Numbered from the stretch's first letter, positions 18,620 to 41,239 are shown. The stretch is DNA of 64,000 nucleotides from Botryllus schlosseri (GCA_051294905.1 CM119371.1:24492001-24556000); one strand, 5' to 3'. Program-made: numbers and translations. The notes: generated from the sequence alone by a model not told the origin.

Positions 18620-18892
18620 GTCCTTGGTTTCGAGTCTCGTCTCTGCCATGTTTTGATGTGTTGGAGGTTTATCTGGGTTCCTCATCGCCAATACCGCTGT
18701 AAATGTAGCGCCTTCACATGTCCAGAAGGGAAGAGAGAGCCGAACTCAAGAAAGATGGCGGCAGATACCAGAAAAAAGTACGCAAGAATGCGGCAAAGAT
18801 ATCAAAAGACACGAATTTATGAAATTACTCTCCGGGCGCAAATGACCTAGGAGTTAATATGCGTCAATTGTGTTAATAAAACAAACAAACAA
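18620..18892 (+). mobile_element. SINE of a related subfamily (shared core, (AAAC)n tail)
   Basis: Shares TGTTGGAGGTTTATCT-GG-TCCTC-TCGCC with the SINEs at 24.0 and 35.2 kb; ends in AAACAAACAAACAA. Confidence 0.55.
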
Positions 18893-19278
18893 CACCGGGC
18901 CAATAATGTCGTGATTTTCGAATGCGAGTAGTGGGGGATTCACGGTATACCGAAGAATCGTGCCTCACACCGTGAATCCTGGTTCGATTCCGCGTCGGAG
19001 TTTATTCTGTGCTTCATTGCCTCGCAGACCAGGTGAAAGAGCGCACTCACAAGGGATGGAAAAGCATCAAGAAAGAGGTGCGAGAAAACGAACTGTGACA
19101 TCGGGCACTAGGCTAGGATATATAACGGTTATTTTCAGGGATATGTTTCGGGTTGGGGTTAGTTTGGGGGTTATATAAAGTCACAGCATGCTGAAATGAT
19201 GCATGCTAAAGTGTCCTATGTTCAACTGTCGTTTTCGATTATGTTGCATGCTCAATGCTCATATGTCGGGCTATCATA

Positions 19279-19795
19279 TAGGGCTGGGCACAATGATTCG
19301 AGTACTCGAATCTGAATCGAGTATTAATTTCAATGATGCGAGTCGTGTAGCAAAATATGATTTTTTTGAGTACTAAAATTATACGCTTCTCGCCACTGAA
19401 AATTAATTTATCAACGAGAATTATAGTTTCGATACTGATTTTCACTGTTGAAGCCTTGAAACCTTGATCAGCGGTATCGTAACATACGAAATCGATGGTA
19501 CAAAGCTACGAAGGTTACTGGACGTAGCACATTTCCGAAGTCATGATTATCCCACAACATTGTAACCAAGTGGAATGAAACCGGTATGGTCGAAAAAATA
19601 CCAAAGTATCTTTTATGAGATGGATAACTGACATTTTATTCTTTGTGGTGGCATAAATGGTACATATTCGAGCTTTGACGTATTGTATTCTGTTATGACG
19701 TCATAATGAGTGATACTCGATTACTCGACTCGACTCGAAGCATATTACGTGATTCAGAATCGATTCACTCAGGTACTCGATTTTGCCCAGCCCTA
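19279..19795. mobile_element. MITE (TAGGGCTGGGCA termini)
   Basis: TIR TAGGGCTGGGCA / TGCCCAGCCCTA; 6-bp duplication ATCATA on both sides. Confidence 0.7.
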
Positions 19796-21285
19796 ATCAT
19801 ACATAGGGAAGATGTGGTACCAACGAGACACTGCATGGGACCGAAAATACTCGAAAATTTATCTGTGATAATCCCATGATTACAGTACGCGAATTTGTCC
19901 ACAATGGCATGCTGGCAGAATCGAGTCAAGTCAAGTCATACGAAAAAGTTCACTGGAGTCTGACTCGAGTCAAGTCATGACTCGAGTCATCCCGACACTG
20001 CCCTGTTTACCGTCTATTAGGGTCAGTGACCCAATGTTTACCCATCAGATTACTCATAAGCTCAATTTTTAACTATTACGGCAGTTCTCGGCCATTTGTG
20101 AGGCCAAATTCGTGTTATACTCGAAATTCGGGGTGTCCCGCAGTTTCCGCGTTTTTTTTAGATATTTTTCACCAGGCCATGTTCAGCGCTTACAAGGCTA
20201 AGTGACCAAATGTTTAGCCATCAGATACCTCGTATATTTTCAATTTTCACCTATTACGACAGTTTTCGGCCATTTGTGAGGCCAAACTCGTCTTATACTG
20301 GAAATGTAGGGTGTCCCGCGGTTTCTAGATATTTGCCACGAGGCCATATGCTGGGCGTGTATAATCGTCAGTGAACGAATGTTTGACCCGCAGATACTTA
20401 ATAAGTTCAATTTTTAACTTTATACGACAGTCCTCTGCCATTTGAGGCATAATTTGCCTCATACTCGAACATTTGTGTCCCGCGGTTTCCGCGGTTTCTA
20501 GATGTTTGCCACGAGGCAACGCTGCGCGTGTATAATCGTTAGTGACCGAAATGTGTAATCCTCAGATACTTCATAAGTTCGAATTTTAACTATCACGGCA
20601 GTTCGCGGCCGATGGTGTGGAGAGGTTAAATCTGCGTTGTATTCGAAAATTTAGGTGTTCGCAGTTTCCGCGTTTTCTTATATTCCGCCAGGCTATATTC
20701 AGCGTCTATTAGGGTCAGTGGCCGAAGGCTTAACCCTCAGATACTTCATAAGTTCGATTTATAACTATCACGACGGTTTGCGGTCGTTTGTGAGGTTAAA
20801 TCTGCCTTATACTCGAAAATTAGGGTGTCCCGCCGCTCCCGCGTTTTCAAGGTATTGTCCGCGAGGCCAGGTGTATTGTTAGTGAACGACTGTCTGACTC
20901 TCAGATACCAATTAATTTCAATTTTCAACTATTACGACAGTTCTCTGCTATTTATGAGGCCTAAATCGCCTCACTCTAAAATTGATGTCCCGCAGGTTCC
21001 TCGCTTTAGACTTTAGAGTTCCTTCAATGAGATCTACAAATGTCGATGACCGACTGTCCCGCGTTCCGCCATTTCCGCTGTTTCCTCGTTTTAGTGCCTA
21101 CTTTGTGCTCTATAGAGGTCAATGACCGACTGTTCCGCGTTCCGCGTTTTCCTCTGTTTTCAGCGCTTTAGGAATCGAGGTTTCCCGCTTTTTCCGCAGT
21201 TTCCGCGTTTTAGGGGCCATTTCCGCGAGTTCCGCGTTTTCCGCAGTTTCCGCGTTCCCTCCTTTTAGGGTTACCCTTGGAGCGG

Positions 21286-21690
21286 TTCGGGTAGAGTTTC
21301 TGAATCAACAACACTAACAACAGACAGCAAGTCTTCAGCTTTCGCTTCGTACAGCTTCTCAATCTAATCAATGACTATAATGACTGTTTTGTCTGCGTCC
21401 ATTATATCTAAGAAACTCGTCGCATCAGTCACACAGACATCAACTCAGATTCAAATGCCAGAAGCACGCGCCGTCGCGCTGCACTGAGCAGGTATCACGT
21501 GACGGAGAAGGAAGAAGGCTGTCTGGGCCGCGATTGTTGAGATACCAGACTTGACGTGTTGTGTGCTACGAATGGTCAATTGGTCATGGCGTATCATGCT
21601 TACTGAATCACGTTGTGATGCAACCACATGCATCACAATTTCACCTTGATGCTCACATTTGTTCTTGTATTTCACCATATTGGGATAGTA
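21286..21690 (-). pseudogene. Decayed coding frame with P-loop NTPase-like motifs, interrupted by the Foldback-like element
   Basis: One frame reads ...TQHVKSGISTIAAQTAFFLLRH...GI*I*VDVCVTDATSFLDIMDADKTVIIVID*IEKLYEAKAEDLL...ETLPEPLQ. It resumes left of the TSD (Q*NSLK, then a GTAAG donor near 15170). Confidence 0.35.
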
Positions 21691-23608
21691 TACATATTCA
21701 GAACACGTATTTCGCCATGATGTGCACTGTGCAGTTGTGCAGTTGCACGCCTGGGTCCTGCTATATGCCTCTTTAGGCCTATAGTTCAGCTTATTAACAA
21801 TTTCATTAAATCAATACAAAGCAGGATTGCGATATATTAAAAAAAAACAGTACACCAATAAATGGCTATATAGCCTATATGTCTTACGATTTTGTCCGCG
21901 AGATGTGCATGTGCATCCCACGTGGGGATGAATAATGATAATATGCCATTTTGAACAGAGAGAGAGAGAGAGTCTTTATTTTGAACAAGCCAGCAGGACT
22001 CCATGAAAACGATATCCAAGTAGGGGCATCCTGATGAACTCCCATGTACGTGGCATCCAGGTGACTGACTACCATGACATCCTCTGGAATATTCATTGGT
22101 GACGGGAATAGGAAGATTCTAAAAATTTCTTCCACTTGAAGTCACCTGGAGTTACATAACTGGACGTCCAATTTGTGACAAACTGAGCAAGTCCTCAGTA
22201 ACTAACCTTGGGAGGTGGGACGAGTTGGAACAATTGTGGACATACCAGTAAATCCATGGGATATCGGGTGTTTGCTGGGAATTTACCAACTCGAAATCTC
22301 ACTCGCGCTACAAGTGAAGCTGAATTGTATCCGAATATGATAATTTACCACCGCTCAGCGCCAAACTGACTCTGTATAACAATATTACGCATGCGCGGTA
22401 TTTCAGAATGGTATAATGTCATTATCAGCAAATATTTCACAAACTTAATCGTTTACACGAATCAAAGCTAAAGTTGAAACGACAATATCAAGGTTTGAAA
22501 CCTTACAACTCGATCAGTGATTTTTTATTCAACTGTAAAATAAGTTAATATTCTGTAAGACACAACAATTATTGCTCGGGTAATGTGACATTGAGATTAC
22601 CAAATTGTATATTGAGAATACGAGATTTGAATGTTTGACTAGTGATAGACTGAAAAATATCTCACAAGTGAATCCATGTGTTATAATGCAGGCTATCGTG
22701 ATACAAACAAATTCAATACGGAATACCTATTAACCAATTGGCCCCCAACCCGAGATTCGAGTGTTCGATCAGTGCTCGATAAAAATTATTTTCATGTATA
22801 CCAACTCTTGCGTTGTGGTGAAGGGTGTTACGATATGAGCAAAGTTTTAATAAACACCATTATCAGCACCCCGATTGAGAAAAAACTTGATTCGTATTTA
22901 TGAAAAGTGTTTGATTGGGAATTTATCTATTTCTCACAATCCCGCCACTGTTCTTGAGGAATGGTATTATATGATTATTAAATAATATTTCACAAACTCA
23001 ACCCTAATCGTAAGACTTGAGAGAAATCACGTACTCGCTTGATGATAACACGCATGCGACAAAAAACATCACCGCGATTTTGTAAACTGATCATACTAAT
23101 CAGGGTATTTACCATCATGCTTCTAGAATAGGATTGACTACTAAAGGTAAATTCAGATAATCCAAAATGAAATATCTCAACTTTGACATAGTCTGAATTG
23201 AAATAGATTGACAAGCATACCTACCAACTTTCACCCACTCACATTTCAAAATTATGCACACATTGATTTAAAACAACTAATGTAACATTACAACTATATT
23301 CCCGATCCAGCTTTCCGTTTATCAAAGAGACATTTTAACATCTTACCATACTCAAAAGAATTATTCACAACATTAACAAGTGTTTAAAATCTAGTTTTCA
23401 CTTACTTGGCTATATCACTACAACTCGCAAACTTGAATTAATTCATCCTTGTGGTATTCGTATGACCGATAATTTTTATTCAACTGTAAAAGTCGTTACT
23501 AATCTATGACACAAAGTAATCACTACTCGGAAAATCTAGTTTTCACTTACTTGACTATATCACTACAACTCGCAAACTTGAATTAATTCATCCTGATGGT
23601 ATTCGTAT

Positions 23609-25281
23609 CAGACATGGGGTGATTACTTCATGAATGTAATCGATTGCGATTACGATTACTTCTAAAGGACGCGATTACGATTACGATTACGATTACAGCA
23701 AAATCAGGAAGTAGTCGATTACGATTACGATTACATTGGAAAAGTAATCACGATTACTCACGATTACATTTATTTTGCATCTTACAGGAATGTTGGAAGA
23801 CAATACATGGATGACAATTTGTTTGTGCGTCTCACGAAAGTTTTTCTTTTAGTCTTCTACGTTTGAGCCACTACAATATATTTTGATTATATAACAAACC
23901 GGAGGTCACGAATTAAGAACATGCACTAAAGTAATTATAACAAGAAACCAGAGGTCATAATTATGAATTACGTTCCCCCAGCTCTACAGGTAGGTAATTG
24001 TGTGTCGAGATAGCGCAGTGTTATAGTCCATGGTTGCGGGTTCGAGTCTGACCGAGGTCGACTTCAGAATTCCTACCTAAGTGTTGGAGGTTTATCTAGG
24101 CTCCTCCTCGCCGCCTCATCCGCGTAAGCGGTGTCTTACAAAAAGCTTAGAAATGGCCTATGCTACAAGTCGGGAGATACCGAATCAAAAATGCAGAAAA
24201 TCGGCCTGGTGTAAATGACCGTTGTAGTCGACAAACACCATGATTACCTCAAACAAATAAACTCTACATGTATATCTGACCATTGGGGGGCTGAGAGAGG
24301 ATTGAAAATTATTGACGAAACTCTTCAACTTGAGATTACCACCCTATGGAGGCCAAAGACTAACGTTTGGGCTGGGCCGCGGGGGGACGAATTGGTCCTG
24401 ATTCCAGCTACAACCCACGCTAACATGGTATATAAGCCCATGGCGGCAGGTCCAAATGTCGAATAAAAAATTATGAAATAACGATTGGCGCCCGTCTCAA
24501 GTAGGAGTCATATGATAAGGCGAAGTGAACATAAAATTCTGCCTTCAACTTAATACAGATATTGTACTGCAAGCTGCCGTTACGAGAAACGGCAAAAACG
24601 GCTCGATTATGATATATATAGCACCAGCTGATGATTTTTACTGCTTTGTTGTGGAAACGGCAATGTTTTAATTGACGAGTTCAAATCTTTGACAGGTGTA
24701 CGACTGTACGTACGTACTGGATAGGCCTACTGCTCGCCAAGCAGCAACGGTCAAATTGCGTTTAAGCATAACCAAATATCAACTTCAACACACAAGTCAC
24801 TATTTTAAACTAGGCAGAGCGGGAATAAATTATACTGCTGTGAGGTAGTGGCGTGTGGAACGTGTTTATAACCTAATATACAGCACGACGCGTGTTCTTA
24901 CAATCACACTAATGTACGACGTACGTACATCGAATATCTATTTACTGTGGACACTTTTTACACAATGACGCGCAAAGTTAATGGGCTGCTTCTGACGTAA
25001 TAATGAGCAGGGGCATTTGAAAATCAGACGTTTGTGCTGTCACGAACCTGGTATAATATATTTTCCTTGTTCACGAATGTTCAGTTTATGTGATAGTCCT
25101 TGTACAAATAAAAAGTAATCGTTCTTTCACAGAAAAATCGATTAGATATGCGAAGTAGTCGATTACGATTACGATTACTTCGGAATTTTTTCGAATGTAA
25201 TCGATTGCGATTACGATTACTTGAAAATGCTGTAATCGTCGTAATCGATTACGATTACTAATCACGATTACCCCATGTCTG
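23609..25281. mobile_element. Non-autonomous hAT element with (GATTAC)n subterminal repeats; left arm only
   Basis: TIR CAGACATGGGGT / ACCCCATGTCTG; 8-bp TSD ATTCGTAT (23601-23608, 25282-25289). Confidence 0.9.
24003..24262 (+). mobile_element. tRNA-derived SINE nested in the hAT element
   Basis: A-box-like TAGCGCAGTG and B-box GGTTCGAGTC; body matches the 35229-35507 copy. Confidence 0.8.
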
Positions 25282-27424
25282 ATTCGTATGACCGATGATT
25301 TTTATTCAACTGTAAAAGTCGTTACTAATCTATAACACAAAGTAATCACTACTCTATGCATACGACGAGATTTGAATACTCGGTCTATGATAGCAATTCG
25401 TACAAGTGAATCCAAGACATCGGGCTGTGAGAAAATCTTCACCACATTGACCTACCGCCTTATCCAACGTACTCAAAGTAAGTAGACACGATTTCAGTAA
25501 TATACACAATCATTACAACTGTAAACTATACTAATCAATCTCGGTCGTATTCACATATCACATACATGTGTTGTTGTTTTTTATTCCTTCAGTAAAATGT
25601 AGTCGTATTAATCTGACGATAACGTGCACACACAAGAAACATCACCGCGATTTTATAATTGATCACCCGACTTAGGGTACCAATAAACATTACCGGGATT
25701 TTTATAAACTAGCCATATTACTCAATACATCTATCAATATCAGAACGCAAGGTCCAATACCGAAAGAAAAGTACTTTTTTAGTTTAATAAAAATCAAATC
25801 ATTCGTCTTCATCTTGTGAATTGTCACACACCCAACTAATATCATACCAAATAGTTATTTACAACAAACAAGACACAGAAAATTTGTTTTGGACGTTTCG
25901 ATTTTATTACTGGGTGTACTGATCCCTTCGCTTCATACAATCTAGATTTAAACACCATCGAACCTTTGGTATCTATCGTTTTGCTGGATTCGAATTATGT
26001 TAGTCTAACAATAAACAAATTTCACTATCTTGGGTTATGAACTCAGTGTGTTAGCGGTCATTCAATATTTTGTAGTATCAACTAGTTACTTTGTGGGATA
26101 CGAATGATCATCCTCACAACTCTTACAAAAGTACGAAGGATATTTACATCACGCAAAGTAGTCGACTTTACTCGATATCCTCACACTACGAAACTAAATG
26201 ATTGGTTAGACTCTACAAACTGTTTTTGATGTCGTTTTTGACACGAATGGTCACGCATCTAAATATTCAAATAATCCAACACACCTTACAGAAATATCAT
26301 AGTTCTTGTAACAAAGTTGTATGAGTATAATGTTTATCGTAAGTCCCACACAGTCATATCCATCCGAGTTTGACTTTTAGAAAATATTGTACCGACATCG
26401 CGACATCTTTCAAAATTAAAACCACGGTGACTGCTTGAGATACCTACCAACGATATCACAGTAATACAGTTACTTCCACAAAAGAGTATGTATTCGACTT
26501 ACTTTCCACAAATCTAACGCACAAAACAATTTACTTTGCTAACGAAAAGTGCTGAATCATCATATGATTGTCCTCGCAACAATACAACTAAAACACACTA
26601 TCATACAAAATGGTCGTTATAGTTTGCATACCAACGGTACATCGTACAAGTAACAAGTCTCGAGAATCCAGTTATTCAAAAAACGTGAAAGTGTTTCTAC
26701 GCCAAGTTGTTATGTTGACGAAAGCGTATATTGTAATATCATGATCGATTTGCATTCGTTGGTCACAAAATGTCACTACTCTAAATAATTATTTTTCACT
26801 CAAACACAAAAGCATACTTGTCACCAATCGTTTTCATCAAGCACGAGTTCAAGAAGCTTACTACGACATGAATTGTTATTTTTATGTTTCGTAAATAGGT
26901 AATAATCAATTTTAGTATCACTGTATCAACATCATCGAGTTGTGCCAATAGATTTACATGTGGTCTTGTGGTTTTAATCGAAGTACACAGCACGGTCTAA
27001 TGTAGAGCCATCTCTATTGTACAGCAACTCGGTAATCAAAATGCAGGCATTAACATTTAAACAGCGATCTTGTTTCGTCACGCGAAAAATATGTTCACTG
27101 TCGCGATACTCTGCACAAGACGTGCAAATCCTTTTCCCCCTCGTAATAGTATACCAACGGCTACCTACGACAACGTTTAACAATACCAACGACACTGGAA
27201 ACACTGAAACCACAACACTTAACCGAGTAAAAATACATTTTCCTTTAGCTACATTACACTTACCCGACTAAACAATATCATTATCACCTGGAGATCCACC
27301 GTTACCCGAGTAACAAAATCATTTTCCTTTGTAGATCTATCGTTTACTCAGAGTAACAATACATTTTCACTTGAGGGTCTATCGTTTTCTAGAGTAACAA
27401 ACCCCTCTTTCCTTTAGAAATTTA

Positions 27425-28000
27425 TTTTTTCCCTGGGTAACAAACTTTTTTCACTTGGAAATATATTTTTTCTTTGGGTAACAAACCTTTATTACTTGGA
27501 AATATATTTTTTCCTGGGTAACAAACCTTTTTCACTTGGAAATATATTTTTTCTTTGGGTAACAAACCTATATCACTTGGAAATATATTTTTTTCCCTGA
27601 GCAACAAACCTTTTTCACTTGGAAATATATTTTTTCTTTGTGTAACAAACCTTTATCACTTGGAAATATATTTTTTCCCTGGGTTACAAACCTTTATCAC
27701 TTGGAAATATATTTTTCCCCTGGGTAACAAACCTTTTTCACTTAAAAATATATTATTTCCCTGAGCAACAAACCTTTTTCACTTGGAAATATATTTTTTC
27801 TCTGGGTAACAAACCTTTTTCACTTGGAAATATATTTTTTCCCTGAGCAACAAACCTTTTTCACTTGGAAATATATTTTTATCCCACAGCAACAAACCAT
27901 TTTCACTTGGAAAAATACTTTTACATAGAGTAACTAATCATTTTCTTTTGGAAATATATTTTCTCCCTGAGTAACAAACCCTTTTCGTTTGGAAAACCAT
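27425..28000 (+). repeat. 41-bp minisatellite (~12 regular units plus degenerate flanks), left arm
   Basis: Unit GGGTAACAAACCTTTTTCACTTGGAAATATATTTTTTCCCT starting at 27435, 27476, 27516, 27557, 27599, 27640, 27681 and onward. Confidence 0.95.
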
Positions 28001-29358
28001 CATTTACCTGAGTACCAATACCATTTGCACTTGGAAATCTTTTCTCTGGGTAACAATACCATTTTCGTTTTGAAAACTGACAACCACACCCGACAATTTG
28101 ATATTTTTGTATATTGTTACAACGGGCAGTGACAAAATATACACCAACAACGACTCCGATACATTTGTGTAATCGCATATTCACTTGTTCTGGTGCATCC
28201 CATCAAAATCATCGGTTAACCACATACAATATGCTCTTGTATATCGAAATGTATGTTTGGGAAATTGGACAATAGGTTTCGACATGTCCGCGATGTCCGG
28301 GTTCGTGCTTTGGATTGTCCAGAGTCAAAATGTCTGAATAAAACACCTCCTCGACGATGGCTGGTACGTGGATAACGGTGTTCGGAAAACCGTTGGATTT
28401 ATGTCACCCATCGCTATAACAATTCCAGGTCGAGTTTTCCCCGCATGTTTACTATATTGTGTCTTTATTGGTCAATGTATGTCTCGACATTCAGTTTGAA
28501 ATCGGAAACCCTGATAAAGTATGTAACCGGATCCGGATATCAACTCTGAATCGATAAACCAATGAACAATATTCAAAGTAAACATGTTACACCCCGTGTT
28601 TCCACGAAAAAATACCATCCAGACACACGTCGCGCTTGTTTGCCCACACCAGTATACGCGTAAATGGAGGTGTGTGACATTGCATGCAATGTGTTGGTAT
28701 ACAAACATCGGGGAGTAATCCGTCGATCCGCAGACATTATCATAGCCGGTAATTTTGATGCAGATCGTATGTCATCACACCCGATAACAATACCAATAAG
28801 CCACATCGCAATGACTCTTAGTCCGCGCTATTACATAGATATTTCGACACCGTTCACTGATTTAATCGATGGTTTTATCGCGTTGTAACATTACAAAATA
28901 GTCATGACCCTATCTCCGGACAGATCACCCAGATCGCTAGTGACTGGATACATCGGTCAATATCCGTCGTGTTGTCGACACCGAAGTTCTCTGCTGAGAC
29001 TACAGCGTTTGACCACTGTGAACTATCCATGTACGGTGCTCGAAACGATTGTGAAAACGATCAGTCTTTCAGTCACGATGAATGGATGTCGCTTCTCCTA
29101 CATAACGACTCCAGATAAATATCGCGAAAAGTGATTCTGCAAATCTCGGACTGATACTGTGATCCAATAAGGTGTGCTTCTGTGGACTGAAGACTGCAAT
29201 CGTACACTACAATACAACACTACCTCTCGTGATTTCACACGCAAACATAAAACACACCATCGTAAGGGTTTGTCAAGTTCGTTCGGTAACATTTCGAAAC
29301 GGTCGTCACCACAAGGCTATTTGATCGGGGTTGGTTTCAGTTTGTCATATCGAATAAC

Positions 29359-29637
29359 ATGTCACTCGGTTTTAGAATCCACCGTTTTTCAAGTCCCCAC
29401 ACCATAGTGTTACGATACAGACAAGATGCGATGGTGGAAATAAAACACGGAAGGCACACTTTGGTGTTATTTGACATGGATTTTACACCCGACGAACCTC
29501 ACATTCGAGCGATGCATTGGAACGCCGCTTGTATTATTGACATCGAAGGGAAAGAAATGTATCGATTTATTGGTTTCGTACATATCCAACAAAAATCTGG
29601 GTATGTGATTGTGCATGGTTCGCATATTCGACTTTGA
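29359..29637 (+). CDS. Unassigned 92-aa intronless protein in the palindrome spacer, paralog of 11507-11794
   Basis: Intact ORF. Motifs shared with the paralog: HTxVLRY, TLxLFDxDFxP, WN, IIDxEGKExxRFxGxVxIQxKSGxxIVxG. Confidence 0.75.
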   Translation: MSLGFRIHRFSSPHTIVLRYRQDAMVEIKHGRHTLVLFDMDFTPDEPHIRAMHWNAACIIDIEGKEMYRFIGFVHIQQKSGYVIVHGSHIRL

Positions 29638-30347
29638 ACGCTCTATTGGTATATGTTGTACAGTTCACTTTCACCGTCGTGTGAATAACCCATGTTACGG
29701 TTCCATGTTTCTGTGTCTGTATGTCATACTTCAGATTGACTCAGAGTCATTGCGATGTGGCTTATTGGTATTGTTATCGGGTGTGATGACATTGGATCTG
29801 CATCAAAATTACCGGCTATGATAATGTCTGTGGATCGACGGATTACTCCCCGATGTTTGTATACCAACAAATTGCATGCAATGTCACACACCTCCATTTA
29901 CGCGTATACTGGTGTGGGCAAACAAGCGCGACGTGTGTCTGGATGGTATTTTTTCGTGGAAACACGGGGTGTAACATGTTTACTTTGAATATTGTTCATT
30001 GGTTTATCGATTCAGAGTTGATATCCGGATCCGGTTACATACTTTATCAGGGTTTCCGATTTCAAACTGAATGTCGAGACATACATTGACCAATAAAGAC
30101 ACAATATAGTAAACATGCGGGGAAAACTCGACCTGGAATTGTTATAGCGATGGGTGACATAAATCCAACCGTTTTCCGAACACCCTTATCCACGTACCAG
30201 CCATCGTCGAGGAGGTGTTTTATTCAGACATTTTGACTCTGGACAATCCAAAGCACGAACCCGGACATCGCGGATATGTCGAAACCTATTGTCCAATTTC
30301 CCAAACATACATTTCGATATACAAGAGCATATTGTATGTGGTTAACC

Positions 30348-31172
30348 CAGGGGTGGGCAAACTTTTGAGCTCGCGGGCCGCATTCAACATCTTAATCCAT
30401 TCGCGGGCCGCACCAAAACGCAATATTGGTATTTGATCATATAGGAAGGACATGGCTCTTATATATATGCTTATTTAAAACAAACCAAACATTGCTTTGA
30501 TGGATCGTACACGCGTCAGAAACAGTTGGCGAGATTGTATAATCTGGTCGACCTCAATAACCAATGTGTCAAAACTATAGTGATGAAAGTAGGTTGTCCC
30601 GATTCTTAGAACAGGATTGAAATTTAAATCTATGAGCAGCGAACTGTTCATAGATTTACTAATTCAACTTTTGGTTTAGTTCCAGGACACATAATGCTGA
30701 CAGCATCATAACCATGTTAGCATCAATCACGCTTCTACTATGGGTAGATAAAATATAAATACCCTAATTCCACGCATACAGAGAACGAATCGAATAGTTT
30801 GATGGCATCAAAGATTACGACTGTGGATGAGAGATTTTTGAATATGAAATTCATACTGAATACAAGGCAATAACTGTGGATTAGATGTAAATCGCGCGGA
30901 GCGCGGAAAAAATTTCATTTGAGCTCAGCTTCGCGGCCCCCTTCAGATGCTTTCACGCCCCCAAGGTTGGGGGGAGGAAGGCGAGCCCCCAGTTTGAGAA
31001 TCACTGCCTTAGAATCTTCATGTTGAAATATACTAATAAAAAGTTGCATTAATTCGATTTTTAGTAAGCATTTTATCAATATTTTTAATAAGTTTCTTTA
31101 GACTCTCGCGGGCCGCACAAAACGGTGTTGCGGGCCGCATGCGGCCCGCGGGCCGTAGTTTGCCCACCCCTG
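30348..31172. mobile_element. hAT (Charlie-like) MITE; right arm only
   Basis: TIR CAGGGGTGGGCAAACT / AGTTTGCCCACCCCTG; TSD GGTTAACC (30340-30347, 31173-31180). The left arm has a single GGTTAACC at ~28214-28221. Confidence 0.92.
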
Positions 31173-31419
31173 GGTTAACCGATGATTTTGATGGGATGCA
31201 CCAGAACAAGTGAATATGCGATTACACAAATGTATCGGAGTCGTTGTTGGTGTATATTTTGTCACTGCCCGTTGTAACAATATACAAAAATATCAAATTG
31301 TCGGGTGTGGTTGTCAGTTTTCAAAACGAAAATGGTATTGTTACCCAGAGAAAAGATTTCCAAGTTCAAATGGTATTGGTACTCAGGTAAATGATAGTTT
31401 TCTAAACGAAAAGGGTTTG

Positions 31420-31972
31420 TTACCCAGGGAGAAAATATATTTCCAAAAGAAAATGATTAGTTACTCTATGTATAAGTATTTTTCCAAGTGAAAATGGTTT
31501 GTTGCTTTGGGATAAAAATATATTTCCAAGTGAAAAAGGTTTGTTGCTCAGGGAAAAAATATATTTCCAAGTGAAAAAGGTTTGTTACCCAGAGAAAAAA
31601 TATATTTCCAAGTGAAAAAGGTTTGTTGCTCAGGGAAAAAATATATTTTTAAGTGAAAAAGGTTTGTTACCCAGGGAAAAAATATATTTCTAAGTGATAA
31701 AGGTTTGTAACCCAGGGAAAAAATATATTTCCAAGTGATAAAGGTTTGTTACCCAAAGAAAAAATATATTTCCAAGTGAAAAAAGTTTGTTGCTCAGGGA
31801 AAAAAATATATTTCCAAGTGATATAGGTTTGTTACCCAAAGAAAAAATATATTTCCAAGTAAAAAAGGTTTGTTACCCAGGGAAAAAATATATTTCCAAG
31901 TGATAAAGGTTTGTTACCCAAAGAAAAAATATATTTCCAAGGGAAAAAGGTTTGTTACCCAGGGAAAAAATG
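31420..31972 (-). repeat. 41-bp minisatellite, right-arm mirror copy
   Basis: Reverse complement of the 27.4-28.0 kb array. Confidence 0.95.
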
Positions 31973-34900
31973 AATTTCTAAAGGAAAGGGGGGTTTGTTA
32001 CTCTAGAAAACGATAGACCCTCAAATGAAAATGTATTGTTACTCTGAGTAAACGATAGATCTACAAAGGAAAATGATTTTGTTACTCGGGTAACGGTGGA
32101 TCTCCAGGTGATAATGATATTGTTTAGTCGGGTAAGTGTAATGTAGCCAAAGGAAAATGTATTTTTACTCGGTTAGGTGTTGTGGTTTCAGTGTTTCCAG
32201 TGTCGTTGGTATTGTTAAACGTTGTCGTAGGTAGCCGTTGGTATACTATTACGAGGGGGAAAAGGATTTGCACGTCTTGTGCAGAGTATCGCGACAGTGA
32301 ACATATTTTTCGCGTGACGAAACAAGATCGCTGTTTAAATGTTAATGCCTGCATTTTGATTACCGAGTTGCTGTACAATAGAGATGGCTCTACATTAGAC
32401 CGTGCTGTGTACTTCGATTAAAACCACAAGACCACATGTAAATCTATTGGCACAACTCGATGATGTTGATACAGTGATACTAAAATTGATTATTACCTAT
32501 TTACGAAACATAAAAATAACAATTCATGTCGTAGTAAGCTTCTTGAACTCGTGCTTGATGAAAACGATTGGTGACAAGTATGCTTTTGTGTTTGAGTGAA
32601 AAATAATTATTTAGAGTAGTGACATTTTGTGACCAACGAATGCAAATCGATCATGATATTACAATATACGCTTTCGTCAACATAACAACTTGGCGTAGAA
32701 ACACTTTCACGTTTTTTGAATAACTGGATTCTCGAGACTTGTTACTTGTACGATGTACCGTTGGTATGCAAACTATAACGACCATTTTGTATGATAGTGT
32801 GTTTTAGTTGTATTGTTGCGAGGACAATCATATGATGATTCAGCACTTTTCGTTAGCAAAGTAAATTGTTTTGTGCGTTAGATTTGTGGAAAGTAAGTCG
32901 AATACATACTCTTTTGTGGAAGTAACTGTATTACTGTGATATCGTTGGTAGGTATCTCAAGCAGTCACCGTGGTTTTAATTTTGAAAGATGTCGCGATGT
33001 CGGTACAATATTTTCTAAAAGTCAAACTCGGATGGATATGACTGTGTGGGACTTACGATAAACATTATACTCATACAACTTTGTTACAAGAACTATGATA
33101 TTTCTGTAAGGTGTGTTGGATTATTTGAATATTTAGATGCGTGACCATTCGTGTCAAAAACGACATCAAAAACAGTTTGTAGAGTCTAACCAATCATTTA
33201 GTTTCGTAGTGTGAGGATATCGAGTGAAGTCGACTACTTTGCGTGATGTAAATATCCTTCGTACTTTTGTAAGAGTTGTGAGGATGATCATTCGTATCCT
33301 ACAAAGTAACTAGTTGATACTACAAAATATTGAATGACCGCTAACACACTGAGTTCATAACCCAAGATAGTGAAATTTGTTTATTGTTAGACTAACATAA
33401 TTCGTATCCAGCAAAACGATAGATACCAAAGGTTCGATGGTGTTTAAATCTAGATTGTATGAAGCGAAGGGATCAGTACACCCAGTAATAAAATCGAAAC
33501 GTCCAAAACAAATTTTCTGTGTCTTGTTTGTTGTAAATAACTATTTGGTATGATATTAGTTGGGTGTGTGACAATTCACAAGATGAAGACGAATGATTTG
33601 ATTTTTATTAAACTAAAAAAGTACTTTTCTTTCGGTATTGGACCTTGCGTTCTGATATTGATAGATGTATTGAGTAATATGTCTAGTTTATAAAAATCCC
33701 GGTAATGTTTATTGGTACCCTAAGTCGGGTGATCAATTATAAAATCGCGGTGATGTTTCTTGTGTGTGCACGTTATCGTCAGATTAATACGACTACATTT
33801 TACTGAAGGAATAAAAAAAAAAACATGTCTGTGATATGTGAATACGACCGAGATTGATTAGTATAGTTTACAGTTGTAATGATTGTGTATATTACTGAAA
33901 TCGTGTCTACTTACTTTGAGTACGTTGGATAAGGCGGTAGGTCAATGTGGTGAAGATTTTCTCACAGCCCGATGTCTTGGATTCACTTGTACGAATTGCT
34001 ATCATAGACCGAGTATTCAAATCTCGTCGTATGCATAGAGTAGTAATTACTTTGTGTCATAGATTAGTAACGACTTTTACAGTTGAATAAAAATTATCGG
34101 TCATACGAATACCACAAGGATGAATTAATTCAAGTTTGCGAGTTGTAGTGATATAGCCAAGTAAGTGAAAACTAGATTTTAAACACTTGACAAACGGAAA
34201 GCTGCATCGGGAATATAGTTGTAATGTTACATTAGTTGTTTCAAATCAATGTGTGCATAATTTCGAAATGTGAGTGGGTGAAAGTTGGTAGGTATGCTTG
34301 TCAATCTATTTCAATTCAGACTATGTCAAAGTTGATATATTTCATTTTGGATTATCTGAATTTACCTTTAGTAGTCAATCCTATTCTAGAAGCATGATGG
34401 TAAATACCCTGATTAGTATGATCAGTTTACAAAATCGCGGTGATGTTTTTTGTCGCATGCGTGTTATCATCAAGCGAGTACGTGATTTCTCTCAAGTCTT
34501 ACGATTAGGGTTGAGTTTGTGAAATATTATTTAATAATCATATAATACCATTCCTCAAGAACAGTGGCGGGATTGTGAGAAATAGATAAATTCCCAATCA
34601 AACACTTTTCATACATACGAATCAAGTTTTTTCTCAATCGGGGTGCTGATAATGGTGTTTATTAAAACTTTGCTCATATCGTAACACCCTTCACCACAAC
34701 GCAAGAGTTGGTATACATGAAAATAATTTTTATCGAGCGCTGATCGAACACTCGAATCTCGGGTTGGGGGCCAATTGGTTAATAGGTATTCCGTATTGAA
34801 TTTGTTTGTATCACGATAGCCTGCATTATAACACATGGATTCACTTGTGAGATATTTTTCAGTCTATCACTAGTCAAACATTCAAATCTCGTATTCTAAA

Positions 34901-35228
34901 TATACAATTTGGTAATCTCAATGTCACATTACCCGAGCAATAATTGTTGTGTCTTACAGAATATTGACTTATTTTACAGTTGAATAAAAAATCACTGATC
35001 GAGTTATAAGGTTTCAAACCTTAAAATTGTCGTTTCAACTTTAGCTTTGATTCGTGTAAACGATTAAGTTTGTGAAATATTTGCTGATAATGACATTATA
35101 CCATTCTGAAATACCGCGCATGCGTAATATTGTTATACAGAGTCAGTTTGGCGCTGAGCGGTGGTAAATTATCATATTCGGATACAATTCAGCTTCACTT
35201 GTAGCGCGAGTGAGATTTCGAGTTGGTA

Positions 35229-35507
35229 TGTTTGTTTGTTTGTGGGGTATTCATGGTGCTTGTCGACTACTATGGTCATTTACACCAGGCCGATATTCTT
35301 CTTATTTTTCCGTAACTGCCGACTTATAGCACGGCCCACCTCTAGGCTTTTGTAAGACACCGCTGACGCGGATGAGGTGGCGAGGAGGAGCCTAGGTAAA
35401 CCTCCAACACTTAGGTATCGGAATTCGCAAGTCGACCTCGGTCGGACTCGAACCCGCACCCATTGGTGTTGCAGCCGCGGATTATACCACTGCGCTATCT
35501 CGCCACT
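35229..35507 (-). mobile_element. Full-length tRNA-derived SINE (tRNA-Cys-like head)
   Basis: Minus strand reads GGCGAGATAGCGCAGTGG...CTGCAAC...GGTTCGAGTCC with an (AAAC)n tail; 13-bp TSD TTTCGAGTTGGTA (35216-35228, 35508-35520). Confidence 0.9.
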
Positions 35508-35801
35508 TTTCGAGTTGGTAAATTGACACATTGATTGAATATTACCATGATTCTTATGACGTGTCTAAAGTCAATCCTATTCTAGAAGCGTTGAAACTTA
35601 TAGCGACTGTGTGGAAATCGAAAACAGAGCCGAAAGTTGGTCAAGTCAAGTAATATTCCTAAAAAGATTGTATGATTTTACAATTATTTCGCATCTATTT
35701 GAGTATGTGGTAATCTCACAAAGGATTAGGGTTAGGGCGGAAATAAGTGACTATTTGTTGCTATTCAAGTTACCCACACTGATGGTTCTGTTAGTCGGTA
35801 T

Positions 35802-38800
35802 CAGGGATATATAGAACTCCGGGATGGCTGACTTCATTTTGGCCGTTACCTAAGTAGGTCCAGAAAGTTACCTGCAATCTGCCTCGAAATATCCACTTTT
35901 CTGCAAGCTAGCGATACAGCTGTTTCTAGAATAATGATCCTCACCCTTTTGCAGAATAGTTGGCACTTCTTCGATAGTAGGTAGACATCGAAAAGTGTTT
36001 ACCATGATCACCAATGAATGTTTCCCATGAACACGAATACAAATTTATAAACGTCAAAATGAATTGTTGTTTTTTGTGTCTTTGGAGAGACGGATATTGG
36101 GGTCTGGTTGGGGGGGGGGGTATTAAGATTCGATAGGGTTGAGGAAATAGGGATATTAGGGCTTGGGAGGGGATGTTAGGCTTGCGGGAAATTAGGGTTA
36201 TGGGAAGGGCGATATTAGGGTTTGGGAAAGAGGGATATTAAGGTTTGAGGAAAGGGGGATTGGAGGTGGGTTAGGGTCAAAGTTGGGGTTAGGTATCCCA
36301 AGATTAGGAAGGGGGATATTAGGGTTGCGGGAGGGAGGATATTAGGGTTGCGGGAGGGGGATATTAGGGTTGTGGGAGGGGGGATATTAGGGTTGGGGTT
36401 AGGGGGATATTAGGGTTGCGGGAGGGGGATATTAGGGTTGGGGTTAGGGGTATATTAGGGTTGTGGGAGGGGGGATATTAGGGTTGCGGGAGGGGGATAT
36501 TAGGGTTGTGGGATGGGGGATATTATAGGGTTGGGGTTAGGGGGATATTAGTGTTGCGGGAGGGAGATATTAGGTTGGAGTTATGGGGATATTAGGGTTG
36601 GAGGTGGGTTAGGTTCAACGTTGGGGTTAGATTACCCCTAACCGGTGTTTAACCCACCTCCAATCTCCCTTTCACCCAACCCTAATATCCCCTCTCCCAC
36701 AGCCCTAATATACCCTAACCCCAACATCCCCCTCCCATAACCCTAATATACCCCTAACCCCAACCCTAATATCCCCCCTCCCACAACCCTAATATCCCCC
36801 TCCCGCAACCCTAATATCCCCCTCCCGCAACCCTAATATCCCCCCTCCCACAACCCTAATATCCCCCCTCCCACAACCCTAATATCCCCCTAACCCCAAC
36901 CCTAATCTTGGGATACCCTAAACCCAACTTTGACCCTAACCCACTCCAAACGCAAAAACAATACATTTTGACGTTTATAAATTTTTGTTCGTGTTCATGG
37001 AAAACATTCATTGGTGATCATGGTGAACACTTTTCGATGTCTACCTACTATCGAAGAAGTGCCGAATAGTTAGTGAGTAAGCCAGACATTCTTCCCATAT
37101 CACAACCTTACTGCTGTATAGCCAACCAAGTAAACTATGACAACTCTGAATTTCAGTAAATCATGAATGTGTTTAATTTCTACACATCATATAATCTGCA
37201 TCAGGCCATAAATAACAGAGTGAATAACGAATAATATCAGCGTCTTCTACCTATTTACAAGCCATTGTCTGAAACCTTGCAGCTGGGAAGGGGGGGGGGG
37301 CGGTAATAGGATTGATTAAATCAACCATTTCAATTAGCGTTAATCGACAATTACCATGAAGTATAGGGTTGCATTTGAAACAAACATGTTTAAAACCAGG
37401 CCCTTGTATAAAACATACTTTTTTTAAGCGATTACGTCAAGAATATTCAACAGTGACGTCATATTGGATTGACATTGACAATTGAAAATATAGTGTGAAT
37501 ATAGCTCCTTTGACGAAATATATGTGCTATTGCTGTTGAACCAACTATTTTGAGGGTTCCAGCCATTCCATATCGATATTAGTCGGCTATATCGGGTCGT
37601 AATCGTCCGTAGGCTCATACAACACATGTTTTGGAAAGTATTTACACAATTATGGCATAATTTTACAACTTAAAAAGAATTTTTTTCAAAAGGCCTTTGT
37701 TTAAAACACTGTTTAAAGCATGTTTTAAACATTGTGTTTCAAACACAGTTTATTTTAAATGCACCCCCACCATGGAGCATTTACAATAACAAAAAGATAG
37801 CACGGCCTGTATGGACTCGAAATTGTGATAGCAGCATTGTCATCTTCTGTGTCACTCAATGAGAGTTGATCAAGAAATCAACACACCATTGATACTTCTC
37901 TTCAGGTTCAAATGCAGCCTGGGGGGGTAGAAGTTTGGTACATATCATTATCAATTTGAGAAGCATTCGGTAGACCCAGTTGTTGAATTCAGCTGATATT
38001 TTGTTCACCGAGCAATAGATTCATGACCGCAGTGAAGAAATTACAACCATGGCTTAACGGTACATCACGAATGGGCCTCCTGAAGCATTTCATGCCATTT
38101 ATCAGTTAAGAAATATTCAGTATCATTGTCTTGCAGATTTTCCGATAGAGCGATAGATGATTCCATGTCAAAAAAACATCTCGGTGAGGAGGCACGAGAT
38201 CCAAATATTCAGATTGTGGCCATCTTTGCCAAGATTTCAATGGGATGTGCCCAGAATAATATATCAGGATATCCACTGTTGACGTGATGCAAATGCTGGA
38301 ACATCGCGTTTGTTTTTCCGGAATCTGCAACAAAAATGAACAAATGATGTATTTAGAGACACAAATTAACCTTAAGAATATATATATAGATGTATGCAGA
38401 GTTGTTCTATAGTGAAGAACTTCTACTTCATTGTAGTACTCAAGTAGGTGTTGCCTATTTTCGAAGATAAATCTTGTAAATTTGAAGCAGCCATCTCCAA
38501 ACTCAAGTACCTTGCAGGCATTTCACTTTCTACAGCTACTTGAGGAAGTTTAAATACCAGTACGCCCGGGAATACAACTATTACTTGAGTAGCAACGCAG
38601 ACTACTTTAACCACATCAGGATTAATGTAAATCGCTCATTTAATAACGTATTACTAGAATCAGCCTAACTTACCTTTGGCCGACCGAGGAGAGCTCCAAT
38701 GCATTATTGCGACGATTTGACGAAACCTTGCAAATTGAAAGCAATCCTCAGAGTTTTCTCTTCCTTCGTCGTACAGGCCTATAGCCTATAGGCTATAAGT

Positions 38801-39914
38801 GTTTATTTGGTAAAGACAGGCCGTATCTCAGGATCGTATCGTGTCCTGACGATTGTGTTGGCTTATCCATTCAAGGGAGTGGGCATCTTCATGGCTTCAG
38901 TAAGAGCAAATGGTCAACAAATGTTGTGGCCATATACTGTACTGGAAGTCAGCCATTGGCAGTTCACAACAGTGCATTTCTGTTGAAGTATAATTCCAGT
39001 ACTGTAGCATTAAGGTGCCATTCATTAACAAACATATGCCTGTCTTGATTTACTAGACATGTAACTGATGAATAGTATCTGTAACAAGAGATTGGATTCA
39101 AAAGTTGTTATGGACACTTACAACTGCAACGACCTTGACGTGTTGTGTTTGTATTAGATTCAAATGTTTGGTTATCCTTATTTGAAATGCCTCTTGAATC
39201 TTGCACATCGGTAGTGTACTCATGCAGTGGCTCCAATTCTTACTAAGAATAATCAAGCAATGATCTGGAATACTGGTAAGCCTGCAATAGGCTACCAGCA
39301 CTACCTGCATATTCACATATTAATCCATAGCACAAGATCTTAACTGACGAAGTCCCTCCTAACGGTCGCCTTCATAGCTCACACGGCACAGTGTAAATGT
39401 ACACTTGTACTTGTACAATGTACAGCCTTGGATGGTATGGTGACATACATTCGCATAACATACCGGTAAATGAAAAACATACCGCAAGGCGTAATCTAAA
39501 TCATACTGCGGATATCAATGTTAACGTTAATTATTCTACATTTTGTTATTTTCTCACGATTATCAGCGCAGCAAAACATGTTACATAAGATACTACAGAA
39601 GCAGAGATATTCCGAAGCCGAGTAAATGACCGTACCGGCATACCGCTCAATTGCTGCTGAAGGAATAGGGCTAATACCGCAAAGTTTCAGACTACCTGAA
39701 CATCTCATAACCTAGTTAACGTATAGCTTTATATAAGAACATAAACATGAATATTATATGCCCCTACCGCTCTCAAAAACTTGAAATTACACACAGACGA
39801 AGCGGCTGACTGGAACGTGCATCAAAACTGAATGCGTGAATCCGGACCTACTTAGGTAATGCCGCGATGACGCAATTGACGCAGTCAGCCATCCCGGAGT
39901 TCTATATATCCCTG
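35802..39914. mobile_element. DNA transposon with 32-bp TIRs and 8-bp TSD (P-element-like termini; hAT not excluded)
   Basis: Perfect TIR CAGGGATATATAGAACTCCGGGATGGCTGACT (35802-35833, 39883-39914); TSD GTCGGTAT (35794-35801, 39915-39922). Only decayed minus-strand frames inside. Confidence 0.85.
35962..37063. mobile_element. Fully palindromic Merlin-like non-autonomous element with a G-rich/C-rich telomere-like interior
   Basis: ~110-bp TIR starting GGCACTTCTTCGATAG; 8-bp TSD GAATAGTT (35954-35961, 37064-37071). Interior GGGGGATATTAGGGTT repeats are mirrored by AACCCTAATATCCCCC repeats. Confidence 0.85.
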
Positions 39915-41165: not shown

Positions 41166-41239
41166 CAACTACACTACTAAAGTAAGGTACAAAATCGTAA
41201 AATACCTGGCGGTTGAGAACCACTGCATTAGACAACGAT

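What the first reader, a model, noticed from the sequence alone, without database searches (positions are those of the whole stretch)
22280..35524. 13-kb near-perfect inverted duplication with a single conserved gene in its 914-bp loop
Seen: arms of ~5 kb (excluding insertions) that are near-identical, inner edges at 28823/29738, outer ends AATT-TACCAACTCG...CGAGTTGGTA-AATT, and the conserved 92-aa ORF in the unique spacer. No transposase, integrase, polymerase or RT is visible. Possible explanations (inference): a giant foldback element with a 4-bp AATT target, a head-to-head replication junction of an integrated linear DNA virus or plasmid, or a fold-back chromosomal duplication.
Basis: partly seen in the sequence, partly recalled or inferred. 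Interest (0 to 1): 0.8.

Follow-up and report, generated by a model that had tools for sequence, protein, structure and literature searches.

The report
Old hairpin-shaped Maverick satellite transposon copy

Summary
The inverted duplication is real (arms ~98.8% alike, 914-bp loop, 92-codon open frame). It is not a one-off. The same loop, flanked at the same two bases by inverted arms, recurs on many chromosomes. Position 22280 is where an unrelated transposon (35.4 kb with its own nested inserts; 2-bp duplication AA) split the left arm, and AATT is ordinary arm sequence. The right arm runs on to 41178. The left arm resumes 35.4 kb upstream, outside the window. Both true termini read AGTAGTGTAGTTGATCGG and are flanked by the same 6-bp duplication, AAAGTA. 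These are the Maverick/Polinton hallmarks, and a 15.8-kb Maverick in the same genome with polymerase and integrase has homologous ends. The element has no such genes, so it is a palindromic non-autonomous Maverick derivative, likely moved in trans. The two arms are sister sequences in 10 of 11 copies. Five or six nested insertions each sit in one arm only, so the arms are likely equalised during copying, not in the chromosome. The loop frame shows only weak signs of coding. The scan had already found this family on other DNA of this genome. My four searches listed no paper whose title or abstract start describes palindromic Mavericks.

The parts
1..22279 (.). Window part of a 35,436-bp composite insertion that splits the left arm. 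It is an unrelated TIR transposon (family unit about 6.2-7.4 kb) carrying further nested elements, and it begins upstream of the window at coordinate -13156.
   Evidence: Its ends are CCCAGCAAACAC... and ...GTGTTTGCTGGG, with AA duplicated at the arm junctions. Each end recurs 40 or more times in the genome and always stops at the same base. A 2-bp duplication is seen in 4 of 5 clean copies. Nested content is shown.
22280..28823 (+). Inner part of the left arm. The outer 1.22 kb of this arm lies outside the window at -14377 to -13157.
   Evidence: collinear with the right arm at 98.7-99.3% identity. locate the upstream piece and show the arm sequence restored across the nested element.
23529..25281 (.). 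1,753-bp insertion or rearrangement found only in the left arm. It contains a SINE-like piece at about 24114-24262. A 51-bp extra stretch at 23326-23376 is also left-arm only.
27392..28038 (.). 41-bp tandem repeat array (about 15.7 units) inside the arm, mirrored at 31356-31978.
28824..29737 (+). Unique 914-bp loop, the axis of the palindrome.
   Evidence: The same loop, matched from its first to about its last base, recurs on many contigs (31 full-length rows among 49 matches).
29359..29637 (+). 92-codon open frame in the loop (93 codons in other copies). It may be a small gene; the coding signal is weak.
   Evidence: One 93-aa relative was found in the protein collection. No Pfam family.
29738..41178 (-). 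Right arm, gross 11.4 kb and net about 5.96 kb, ending at the true terminus.
30348..31172 (.). 825-bp hAT-like MITE found only in the right arm. TIR CAGGGGTGGGCAAACT, 8-bp duplication GGTTAACC.
   Evidence: The hAT-like label is recalled from the TIR and the 8-bp duplication; it was not tested.
35229..35517 (-). tRNA-derived SINE found only in the right arm, with about 11 bp duplicated (TCGAGTTGGTA).
35802..39914 (.). 4,113-bp TIR element found only in the right arm. It has a 25-bp perfect TIR CAGGGATATATAGAACTCCGGGATG and an 8-bp duplication GTCGGTAT, and contains the 23-bp satellite at 36186-36906.
40584..40732 (.). 149-bp SINE fragment found only in the right arm.
41161..41178 (-). True right terminus (reverse complement AGTAGTGTAGTTGATCGG), with the Maverick-type (AGT)2 end motif.
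41179..41184 (.). 6-bp target-site duplication AAAGTA. Its twin lies at -14383 to -14378, upstream of the window.

Best explanation
This is an old copy of an abundant family of about 13-16-kb palindromic (arm-loop-arm) elements that bear Maverick/Polinton termini and 6-bp target duplications but no Maverick genes, and that are likely inserted in trans by the integrase of the Mavericks living in the same genome. SHOWN: the family, its fixed axis, the termini, the duplications, the homology of the outer 1-1.4 kb of the arms to the left end of a gene-bearing Maverick, the absence of recognisable genes, and the nested insertions in this copy. INFERRED: (1) The palindrome arose once, by a copy-back or snap-back event that duplicated one Maverick end in inverted orientation. 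(2) Integration uses the helper's rve-type integrase acting on the shared ends. (3) The two arms are made alike again whenever the element is copied. For example, a displaced single strand folds into a hairpin during protein-primed replication, so that one arm templates or corrects the other. They are not equalised while the copy sits in the chromosome. After insertion the arms drift apart and collect private insertions, as in this copy (about 1.2% divergence, five or six one-arm insertions). (4) The loop frame may encode a small protein of unknown role.
For: Family and axis: the loop gives 49 scored matches on many contigs at 79-90% identity. In all 10 fetched copies the inverted arms start exactly at the loop edges and are 94.8-100% alike within a copy. 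Ends: this copy has AGTAGTGTAGTTGATCGG at both termini and AAAGTA on both sides. Perfect 6-bp duplications were read off the flanks in 7 of the 7 other copies whose termini were captured, out of 10 fetched. Helper: C1:30838413-30854242 is 15.8 kb. It has an 887-bp TIR, the duplication CACGGG, the same (AGT)2 start, a protein-primed polymerase (PF03175, 31.2 bits against a cut-off of 25.8) and an rve+chromo integrase. A second clade has the duplication CATTGG. The integrase gives 117 scored matches, many at 96-99% identity with open 359-aa frames. The terminal 80 nt of the Maverick and of the foldbacks align with 21 invariant columns. The outer arm matches the Maverick left end beyond its TIR (copy C9, 95.5% over Maverick positions 755-1356; window 40212-40328 against 2297-2414 at 81%). 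Literature: (AGT)2//(ACT)2 end motifs and 6-bp duplications define vertebrate Mavericks, whose TIRs are 46-1,447 bp (PMC8097293, passages). Arms: the two arms are sister sequences in 10 of 11 copies over the inner 600 nt (within-copy median 99.3%, between-copy 95.8%), and in 3 of 4 close relatives. Every nested insertion here sits in one arm only.
Against: No experiment shows mobilisation by the Maverick integrase. Apart from the outer 1-1.4 kb, the arms (about 4.5 kb) and the loop match none of the three Maverick regions tested, so most of the element is of unknown origin. Tblastn with 13 Maverick frames hit only 1 of 11 foldback sequences. Hairpin-templated equalisation is an inference. No copy was found with a nested transposon mirrored in both arms (with only three query elements). 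One of 11 copies (C10) and one of 4 close relatives (C7) do not have sister arms. In the close subfamily, within-copy and between-copy arm identities overlap (98.8% against 96.2-98.7%). Loop frame: third codon positions are no more variable than the others. It is less conserved than the neighbouring inner arms (92% against 94-99%). The excess of synonymous shared changes is only nominal (P=0.037). The structure prediction failed (pLDDT 36).
Confidence: 0.72

Rival explanations
1. A classical Foldback-type or other cut-and-paste DNA transposon family (FB/MULE-like, P-like as Galileo, or hAT-like) is mobilised by a DDE transposase unrelated to Mavericks, and merely resembles Maverick ends.
For: It has long inverted arms with internal tandem repeats (41-bp array; repeats of about 60-170 bp near the termini) and a short loop, as in Drosophila FB, Galileo and Tetris (listings; features recalled). 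Most of the arm has no match to the tested Mavericks.
Against: The duplication is 6 bp in 8 of 8 foldback copies read. The (AGT)2 end motif and 80 or more nt of terminal homology match gene-bearing Mavericks of the same genome. The homology extends past the Maverick TIR into its unique left end and includes a fragment of a Maverick frame in copy C9. No transposase domain was found in the element.
Confidence: 0.07
2. The element is as described, but the arms are kept alike by gene conversion or recombination between the two arms in the chromosome, not by the way the element is copied.
For: Arms are sister sequences in 10 of 11 copies although lineages differ by up to 10% in the inner arm and by more further out. 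Intrachromosomal conversion between long inverted repeats is a known process (established knowledge; for example the palindromes of sex chromosomes).
Against: In this copy five or six nested insertions and about 74 mismatches persist in one arm only, with no sign of conversion. Other copies also keep one-arm insertions (C7, C10, C16). Conversion would be expected to remove or duplicate such insertions.
Confidence: 0.15
3. It is a local fold-back segmental duplication or an assembly artefact (haplotype misjoin, chimeric read) at this locus only.
For: About 1% arm divergence with private indels is also what two haplotypes would show. I could not obtain long reads spanning arm-loop-arm (one search gave only short contigs).
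Against: The same architecture with the same axis occurs at 10 of 10 other fetched loci on different contigs. Both ends of the whole composite carry the same terminus and the same 6-bp duplication. Each break in arm symmetry is explained by a bounded transposon with its own duplication.
Confidence: 0.01
4. The element is autonomous: the small loop protein, perhaps with unrecognised arm products, is itself the recombinase or replication initiator.
For: The frame is open in about 25 of 31 copies read by eye. Shared substitutions show a nominal synonymous excess and no stop codons. A few RNA reads run in sense orientation.
Against: At 92-93 aa it has no Pfam match, no informative atlas neighbour and no confident fold. 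It has a single near-identical relative among 5.8 billion proteins. The ends are those of elements that bring their own integrase.
Confidence: 0.03

Closest known systems
Autonomous Maverick/Polinton elements (Kapitonov and Jurka 2006, recalled; Barreat and Katzourakis 2021, PMC8097293, passages read; Anolis example with 6-bp TSD and 584-bp TIR, PMC3014272, passages read)
   Same: 6-bp target duplication. (AGT)2//(ACT)2 end motif. Terminal inverted repeats. Overall size: 12.8-15.6 kb net here, against 15.4-15.8 kb for this genome's Mavericks and 12.7-24.6 kb in vertebrates. Direct terminal homology to Mavericks of the same genome.
   Different: No polymerase, integrase, capsid, protease or ATPase genes. 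The inverted repeat is about 6 kb per arm (about 93% of the element), against 46-1,447 bp in vertebrate Mavericks. The family is far more numerous than is usual for Mavericks.
Foldback-structured transposons (Drosophila FB, Galileo of the P superfamily, PMC3573991 abstract seen in listing; Tetris; features otherwise recalled)
   Same: The element is almost entirely two long inverted arms with internal tandem repeats around a short middle. It is non-coding in most copies and forms many-copy families.
   Different: Those belong to DDE cut-and-paste superfamilies with other duplication lengths (recalled: FB 9 bp, Galileo 7 bp) and other termini. Here the ends and duplication are Maverick-type, and the arms are longer and mostly non-repetitive.
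Snap-back or copy-back defective genomes of linear DNA and RNA viruses (for example adenovirus incomplete genomes, recalled; copy-back defective viral genomes, listings)
   Same: One genome end is duplicated in inverted orientation around a short unique turn. They depend on a helper for replication and packaging, and are similar in size to the helper or smaller.
   Different: Those are transient by-products inside infections. This is a heritable, chromosomally integrated lineage that has diversified into subfamilies while keeping its axis.
Non-autonomous Polintons, as listed in repeat libraries and mentioned in surveys (PMC3014272, passage: 'Polinton elements (autonomous and nonautonomous)')
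   Same: They carry Maverick ends without the core genes and presumably use a helper.
   Different: I saw no description of a palindromic form. The terms were searched (listings and abstract starts only).

Membership tests
Maverick/Polinton (as a non-autonomous derivative) | Perfect 6-bp target-site duplication | tested here: met
   AAAGTA lies on both sides of this copy. It was also met in 7 of 7 other copies whose termini were captured (flanks read) and in 2 of 2 gene-bearing Mavericks.
Maverick/Polinton (as a non-autonomous derivative) | 5'-(AGT)2 ... (ACT)2-3' (or (AG)3) end motif | tested here: met
   Both termini read AGTAGT.... The motif definition comes from PMC8097293.
Maverick/Polinton (as a non-autonomous derivative) | Terminal inverted repeats | tested here: met
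   Arms of about 5.96 kb net are about 98.8% alike. This is far longer than the 46-1,447 bp reported for vertebrates.
Maverick/Polinton (as a non-autonomous derivative) | [quoted passage not shown] | tested here: not met
   No Pfam hit in 13 frames of the element. Tblastn with 13 Maverick frames found nothing in this copy. It is therefore not a Maverick proper, only a derivative that shares the ends.
Maverick/Polinton (as a non-autonomous derivative) | Capsid, protease and packaging ATPase module | tested here: not met
   as above.
Maverick/Polinton (as a non-autonomous derivative) | Sequence homology of the ends to a gene-bearing Maverick in the same genome (needed for trans-mobilisation) | tested here: met
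   Alignment A1 has 21 invariant and 14 near-invariant columns in 80 nt. Patches of 71-97% identity cover the outer 1-1.4 kb.
Maverick/Polinton (as a non-autonomous derivative) | Actual mobilisation by the Maverick integrase | not testable with these tools
   This needs biochemistry or genetics.
Foldback (FB-like) DNA transposons | Long inverted arms with internal tandem subrepeats and a short or variable middle | tested here: met
Foldback (FB-like) DNA transposons | Duplication length and termini of the FB/MULE-related group (9 bp, recalled) | tested here: not met
   The duplication is 6 bp in all 8 foldback copies read.
Foldback (FB-like) DNA transposons | Autonomous partner with a DDE transposase sharing the termini | not tested
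   No genome-wide scan for other transposases with these ends was made. The only partners found with these ends are Mavericks.

The most novel reading that the evidence does not exclude
These palindromes are true satellites of an endogenous virus. They are replicated by the Maverick protein-primed polymerase through a full-length hairpin intermediate in which one arm rewrites the other at every round. They are held to near helper-genome size because they are packaged in Maverick capsids, and they carry their own small loop gene. This would make them a heritable DNA analogue of copy-back defective interfering genomes that has outnumbered its helper.
Probability: 0.25. Interest if true: 0.85.

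Novelty: new variant of a known kind. Interest (0 to 1): 0.6.

Why it matters
How Mavericks/Polintons replicate and move is still inferred mainly from their genes. A large family that keeps only the ends, and whose two halves stay in step through many rounds of copying, gives a natural read-out of that mechanism, including which ends are recognised and whether single-stranded hairpins are intermediates. It also shows that a virus-like element can spawn a parasite far more numerous than itself. Practically, elements that are about 93% inverted repeat are hot spots for misassembly, deletion and hairpin RNA, and they are easily mis-annotated, as the wrong boundaries in this finding show.

Tried and rejected
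- A genome scan with Pfam PF03175 found nothing and rang in none of the control genomes, so it is uninformative. The polymerase was then found directly in the fetched Maverick.
- Pfam found nothing in 13 element frames and 9 frames of the nested insertions.
- The ESM atlas gave a best score of 0.85 with low recognition, which is no lead.
- AlphaFold2 on a 12-row alignment gave pLDDT 36, so no fold search was run.
- A protein search with the best-conserved 99-aa arm frame found no candidate.
- A search for a nested SINE, MITE or hAT-like element mirrored in both arms of 13 other copies or regions found none.
- Laying DNA contigs of two runs gave only short pieces of very high summed depth. It could not test arm-loop-arm spanning or copy-specific depth.
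- No RNA holder was listed by the run index.
- Raw RNA reads of four runs gave 12-22 reads each on the loop stretch. Most came from diverged copies, and those over the frame were mostly in the orientation expected for sense transcripts. This is too few to claim expression.
- I first read the left arm as truncated at 22280. I rejected this when the missing piece turned up upstream of the window.
- I rejected AATT as a target duplication. Only AA is duplicated, and it belongs to the nested element.
- Literature searches for a palindromic or foldback Maverick/Polinton listed nothing relevant (listings and abstract starts, plus passages of PMC6431247).


Full report
OBSERVATION. The inverted repeat is real. 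The repeat finder and a BLAST of one arm against the other give collinear blocks 22284-23325/35228-34187, 23377-23528/34189-34038, 25282-28221/34110-31173 and 28214-28823/30347-29738. These are 98.7-99.3% identical and surround a unique 914-bp loop at 28824-29737. An ATG-to-stop frame of 92 codons lies at 29359-29637 on the + strand.

IT IS A FAMILY, NOT A LOCAL DUPLICATION. The window lies at G000:C1:24492001-24556000 in a 495-Mb assembly. The loop alone gives 49 scored matches on many contigs at 79-90% identity. Thirty-one rows cover it from about its first to its last base, and there were 1,003 first-look candidates, which is not a copy number. In all 10 loci fetched, inverted arms start exactly at the two loop edges. 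Over 18 kb each copy has arms of about 5.5-7.2 kb that are 94.8-100% alike. This excludes a haplotype misjoin or a one-off fold-back duplication as the explanation of the architecture.

Close relatives of the outer arm (97-99% identical) match from exactly window 22280 inward. Outside the 'AATT' they read the same sequence as the window's right flank. This holds in 9 of the 10 other-copy arm loci printed; the tenth (L034) lacks the exact search motif and reads through likewise. So the arm continues there.

On the right, the arm goes on at 35518-35801, 39915-40583 and 40733-41178, interrupted by nested elements. It ends in ...GATCAACTACACTACT at 41178.

On the left, the 500 bases before 22280 are the end of another repeat family. 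It has 40 or more copies, and 8 of 8 inspected stop at the same base next to unrelated flanks. Fetching 40 kb upstream showed the missing outer 1.22 kb of the left arm at window coordinates -14377 to -13157, in the expected inverted orientation and 97.4-99% identical to the right arm.

The junctions read ...GTGTCAA | CCCAGCAAACAC ... GTGTTTGCTGGG | AATTTACC... The intact arm reads ...GTGTCAATTTACC.... A 35,436-bp insertion therefore split the arm and duplicated AA. The AATT is arm sequence, not a target. The inserted family has units of about 6.2-7.4 kb (ends paired) and a 2-bp duplication in 4 of 5 clean copies. Here it is swollen by its own nested elements.

TRUE ENDS. Both termini read AGTAGTGTAGTTGATCGGTCGTGAT..., and both are flanked by AAAGTA. 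The element thus runs from -14377 to 41178. That is 55.6 kb gross, and about 12.8 kb net: two arms of about 5.96 kb plus the 914-bp loop. The arms have about 74 mismatches in about 6.1 kb of aligned blocks, roughly 98.8% identity.

Insertions found in one arm only are these:
- the 35.4-kb composite and a 1.75-kb insertion in the left arm;
- an 825-bp MITE with duplication GGTTAACC in the right arm;
- a 4,113-bp TIR element with duplication GTCGGTAT in the right arm;
- a 149-bp SINE fragment in the right arm.

WHAT KIND OF ELEMENT. In the 7 of 10 other copies whose termini lay within the fetched DNA, the ends start AGTAGT and the flanks show perfect 6-bp duplications: CTTGTA, CGCATC, GATGTG, GTCGTC, AACGTG, TACGTG and TAGGGC (read off).

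Earlier notes of this scan suggested Polinton ends before I had defined the termini. C1:30838413-30854242 is 15,830 bp with an 887-bp TIR (99.2%), the duplication CACGGG and the start AGTAGTATAGTAGATCG. It has a frame with the protein-primed polymerase domain PF03175 (31.2 bits, cut-off 25.8) and a frame with rve plus chromo domains. A second lineage, at C13, is 15,417 bp with the duplication CATTGG.

The integrase gives 117 scored genomic matches, many at 96-99% identity with open frames. The terminal 80 nt of two Maverick ends and eight foldback ends align with 21 invariant and 14 near-invariant columns. PMC8097293 (passages) gives (AGT)2//(ACT)2 end motifs, perfect 6-bp duplications and TIRs of 46-1,447 bp as the marks of vertebrate Mavericks.

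Beyond the ends, foldback arms match the Maverick's left end over about 1-1.4 kb. The match is patchy, at 71-97% identity, and includes sequence inside the TIR boundary's unique side. Copy C9 matches at 95.5% over Maverick positions 755-1356, with a 114-aa fragment of the neighbouring frame in both arms. The window copy matches at 40212-40328 to Maverick 2297-2414 (81%) and at 40353-40445 to 482-568 (88%). The remaining about 4.5 kb of each arm and the loop match none of the three Maverick regions tested.

MECHANISM: WHAT IS SHOWN AND WHAT IS INFERRED. Shown: a gene-less palindrome with Maverick ends and Maverick-type duplications, many copies, and a fixed axis. Inferred: integration in trans by the Maverick integrase, and an origin by inverted duplication of one Maverick end.

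The arms evolve together. In a tree of the inner 600 nt, the two arms of a copy are sisters in 10 of 11 copies. The exception is C10, which groups with C12. Within-copy identity has a median of 99.3%, against 95.8% between copies. Further out, whole arm segments differ between subfamilies yet are mirrored within each copy. Among close relatives of this copy, arms are sisters in 3 of 4 elements.

In this chromosomal copy, however, every nested insertion and about 1.2% of bases differ between the arms. Other copies also keep one-arm insertions. I therefore favour equalisation at the time of copying over conversion in place. For example, a displaced strand might fold into a hairpin during protein-primed replication. 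This is inference, and I give it about even odds. My search for a nested element mirrored in both arms, which would be direct evidence, found none with three query elements.

Net sizes of 12.8-15.6 kb, close to the 15.4-15.8 kb of the Mavericks, fit a replication or packaging constraint but do not show one.

THE LOOP FRAME. It is open in 11 of the first 11 copies, at 93 codons. The window copy has lost one codon in frame. Three copies end two codons early. Of 20 further copies, five or six are broken by stop codons or frameshifts (read by eye).

Pairwise dN/dS has a median of 0.56. Against that, the three codon positions vary alike (8.6, 7.2 and 7.4%), and the frame is less conserved than the adjacent inner arms (92% against 94-99%).

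I split substitutions in 26 unbroken copies into shared and private ones. Shared changes were 21 synonymous, 37 non-synonymous and 0 stops, against an expectation of 14.5, 40.5 and 3.0 (P=0.037 and 0.047). Private changes fit neutrality, and the two control frames show no signal.

There is one relative among 5.8 billion proteins: 93 aa, 83% identical, from a 671-nt contig. There is no Pfam family, no useful atlas neighbour and no confident fold (pLDDT 36). A handful of RNA reads from diverged copies lie over it, mostly in the orientation expected for sense transcripts. My verdict is that it may be a weakly constrained small gene, at roughly even odds. 'Conserved gene' overstates the evidence.

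COMPARISON AND NOVELTY. The element meets the Maverick tests for duplication, end motif, TIR and end homology. It fails the defining gene content, so it is a non-autonomous derivative, not a Maverick. In shape it is a foldback element, but it fails the foldback groups' duplication length (recalled values).

Full-text searches for Polinton or Maverick together with foldback, palindromic, non-autonomous, snap-back or copy-back terms listed nothing that describes such a form (listings and abstract starts only). Passages of PMC6431247 and PMC3014272 mention only ordinary Polintons. Repeat libraries could not be consulted.

This scan has already reported the family many times on other DNA of the same genome, and once in another genome.
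- the corrected anatomy of this heavily invaded copy;
- evidence from one-arm insertions that the arms are not equalised in place;
- a more cautious reading of the loop frame.

VERDICT. The element is a new variant of a known kind. Interest is 0.6.

Noticed in passing
window 1-22279 and upstream to -13156 (G000:C1:24478844-24514279): A family of about 6.2-7.4-kb elements has ends CCCAGCAAACAC...GTGTTTGCTGGG, 40 or more copies, and a 2-bp target duplication in 4 of 5 clean copies. No Pfam domain was found in 7 frames of this copy. Its superfamily is unassigned.
   Followed up: partly
window 15200-21276: A 6.1-kb insertion nested in that element is itself an inverted-repeat element, with arms 15200-16477 and 20000-21276 at 93% identity and internal repeats. 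Relatives of the host element lack it.
   Followed up: no
window 9489-12725 and upstream -4533 to -1297: A further pair of 3.2-kb inverted arms, 99.4% alike, lies 10.8 kb apart and straddles the window start. It may be another large foldback-type element nested in the same insertion.
   Followed up: no
window 36186-36906: A 23-bp satellite (units containing TTAGGG-like GGGTTAGGG motifs) is arranged as two inverted arrays inside the 4.1-kb hAT-like insertion.
   Followed up: no
window 28304-28663 and mirror 29864-30163: The inner 300-500 bp of each arm is the best-conserved part of the whole family (94-99% per-site agreement in 11 copies), more conserved than the loop frame. It may be a cis-acting site or promoter. 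Its 99-aa frame has no protein relative.
   Followed up: partly
L029/L030 (G000:C9:6647170-6665169), copy C9: This foldback copy carries in both arms a 114-aa fragment (92-93% identical) of the Maverick frame next to the left TIR. This is a trace of the family's origin from one Maverick end.
   Followed up: partly
L047-L050 (G000:C7:11447001-11487000): In this close relative the two arms are not each other's nearest kin (96.8% alike; one arm is nearer to the window copy at 98.7%). It may be a recombinant, or two elements read as one.
   Followed up: no
G000, many contigs: The Maverick rve+chromo integrase gives 117 scored matches in three identity tiers (96-99%, 67-69%, 53-54%). Most have uninterrupted frames, so several Maverick lineages appear to be recent.
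   Followed up: partly
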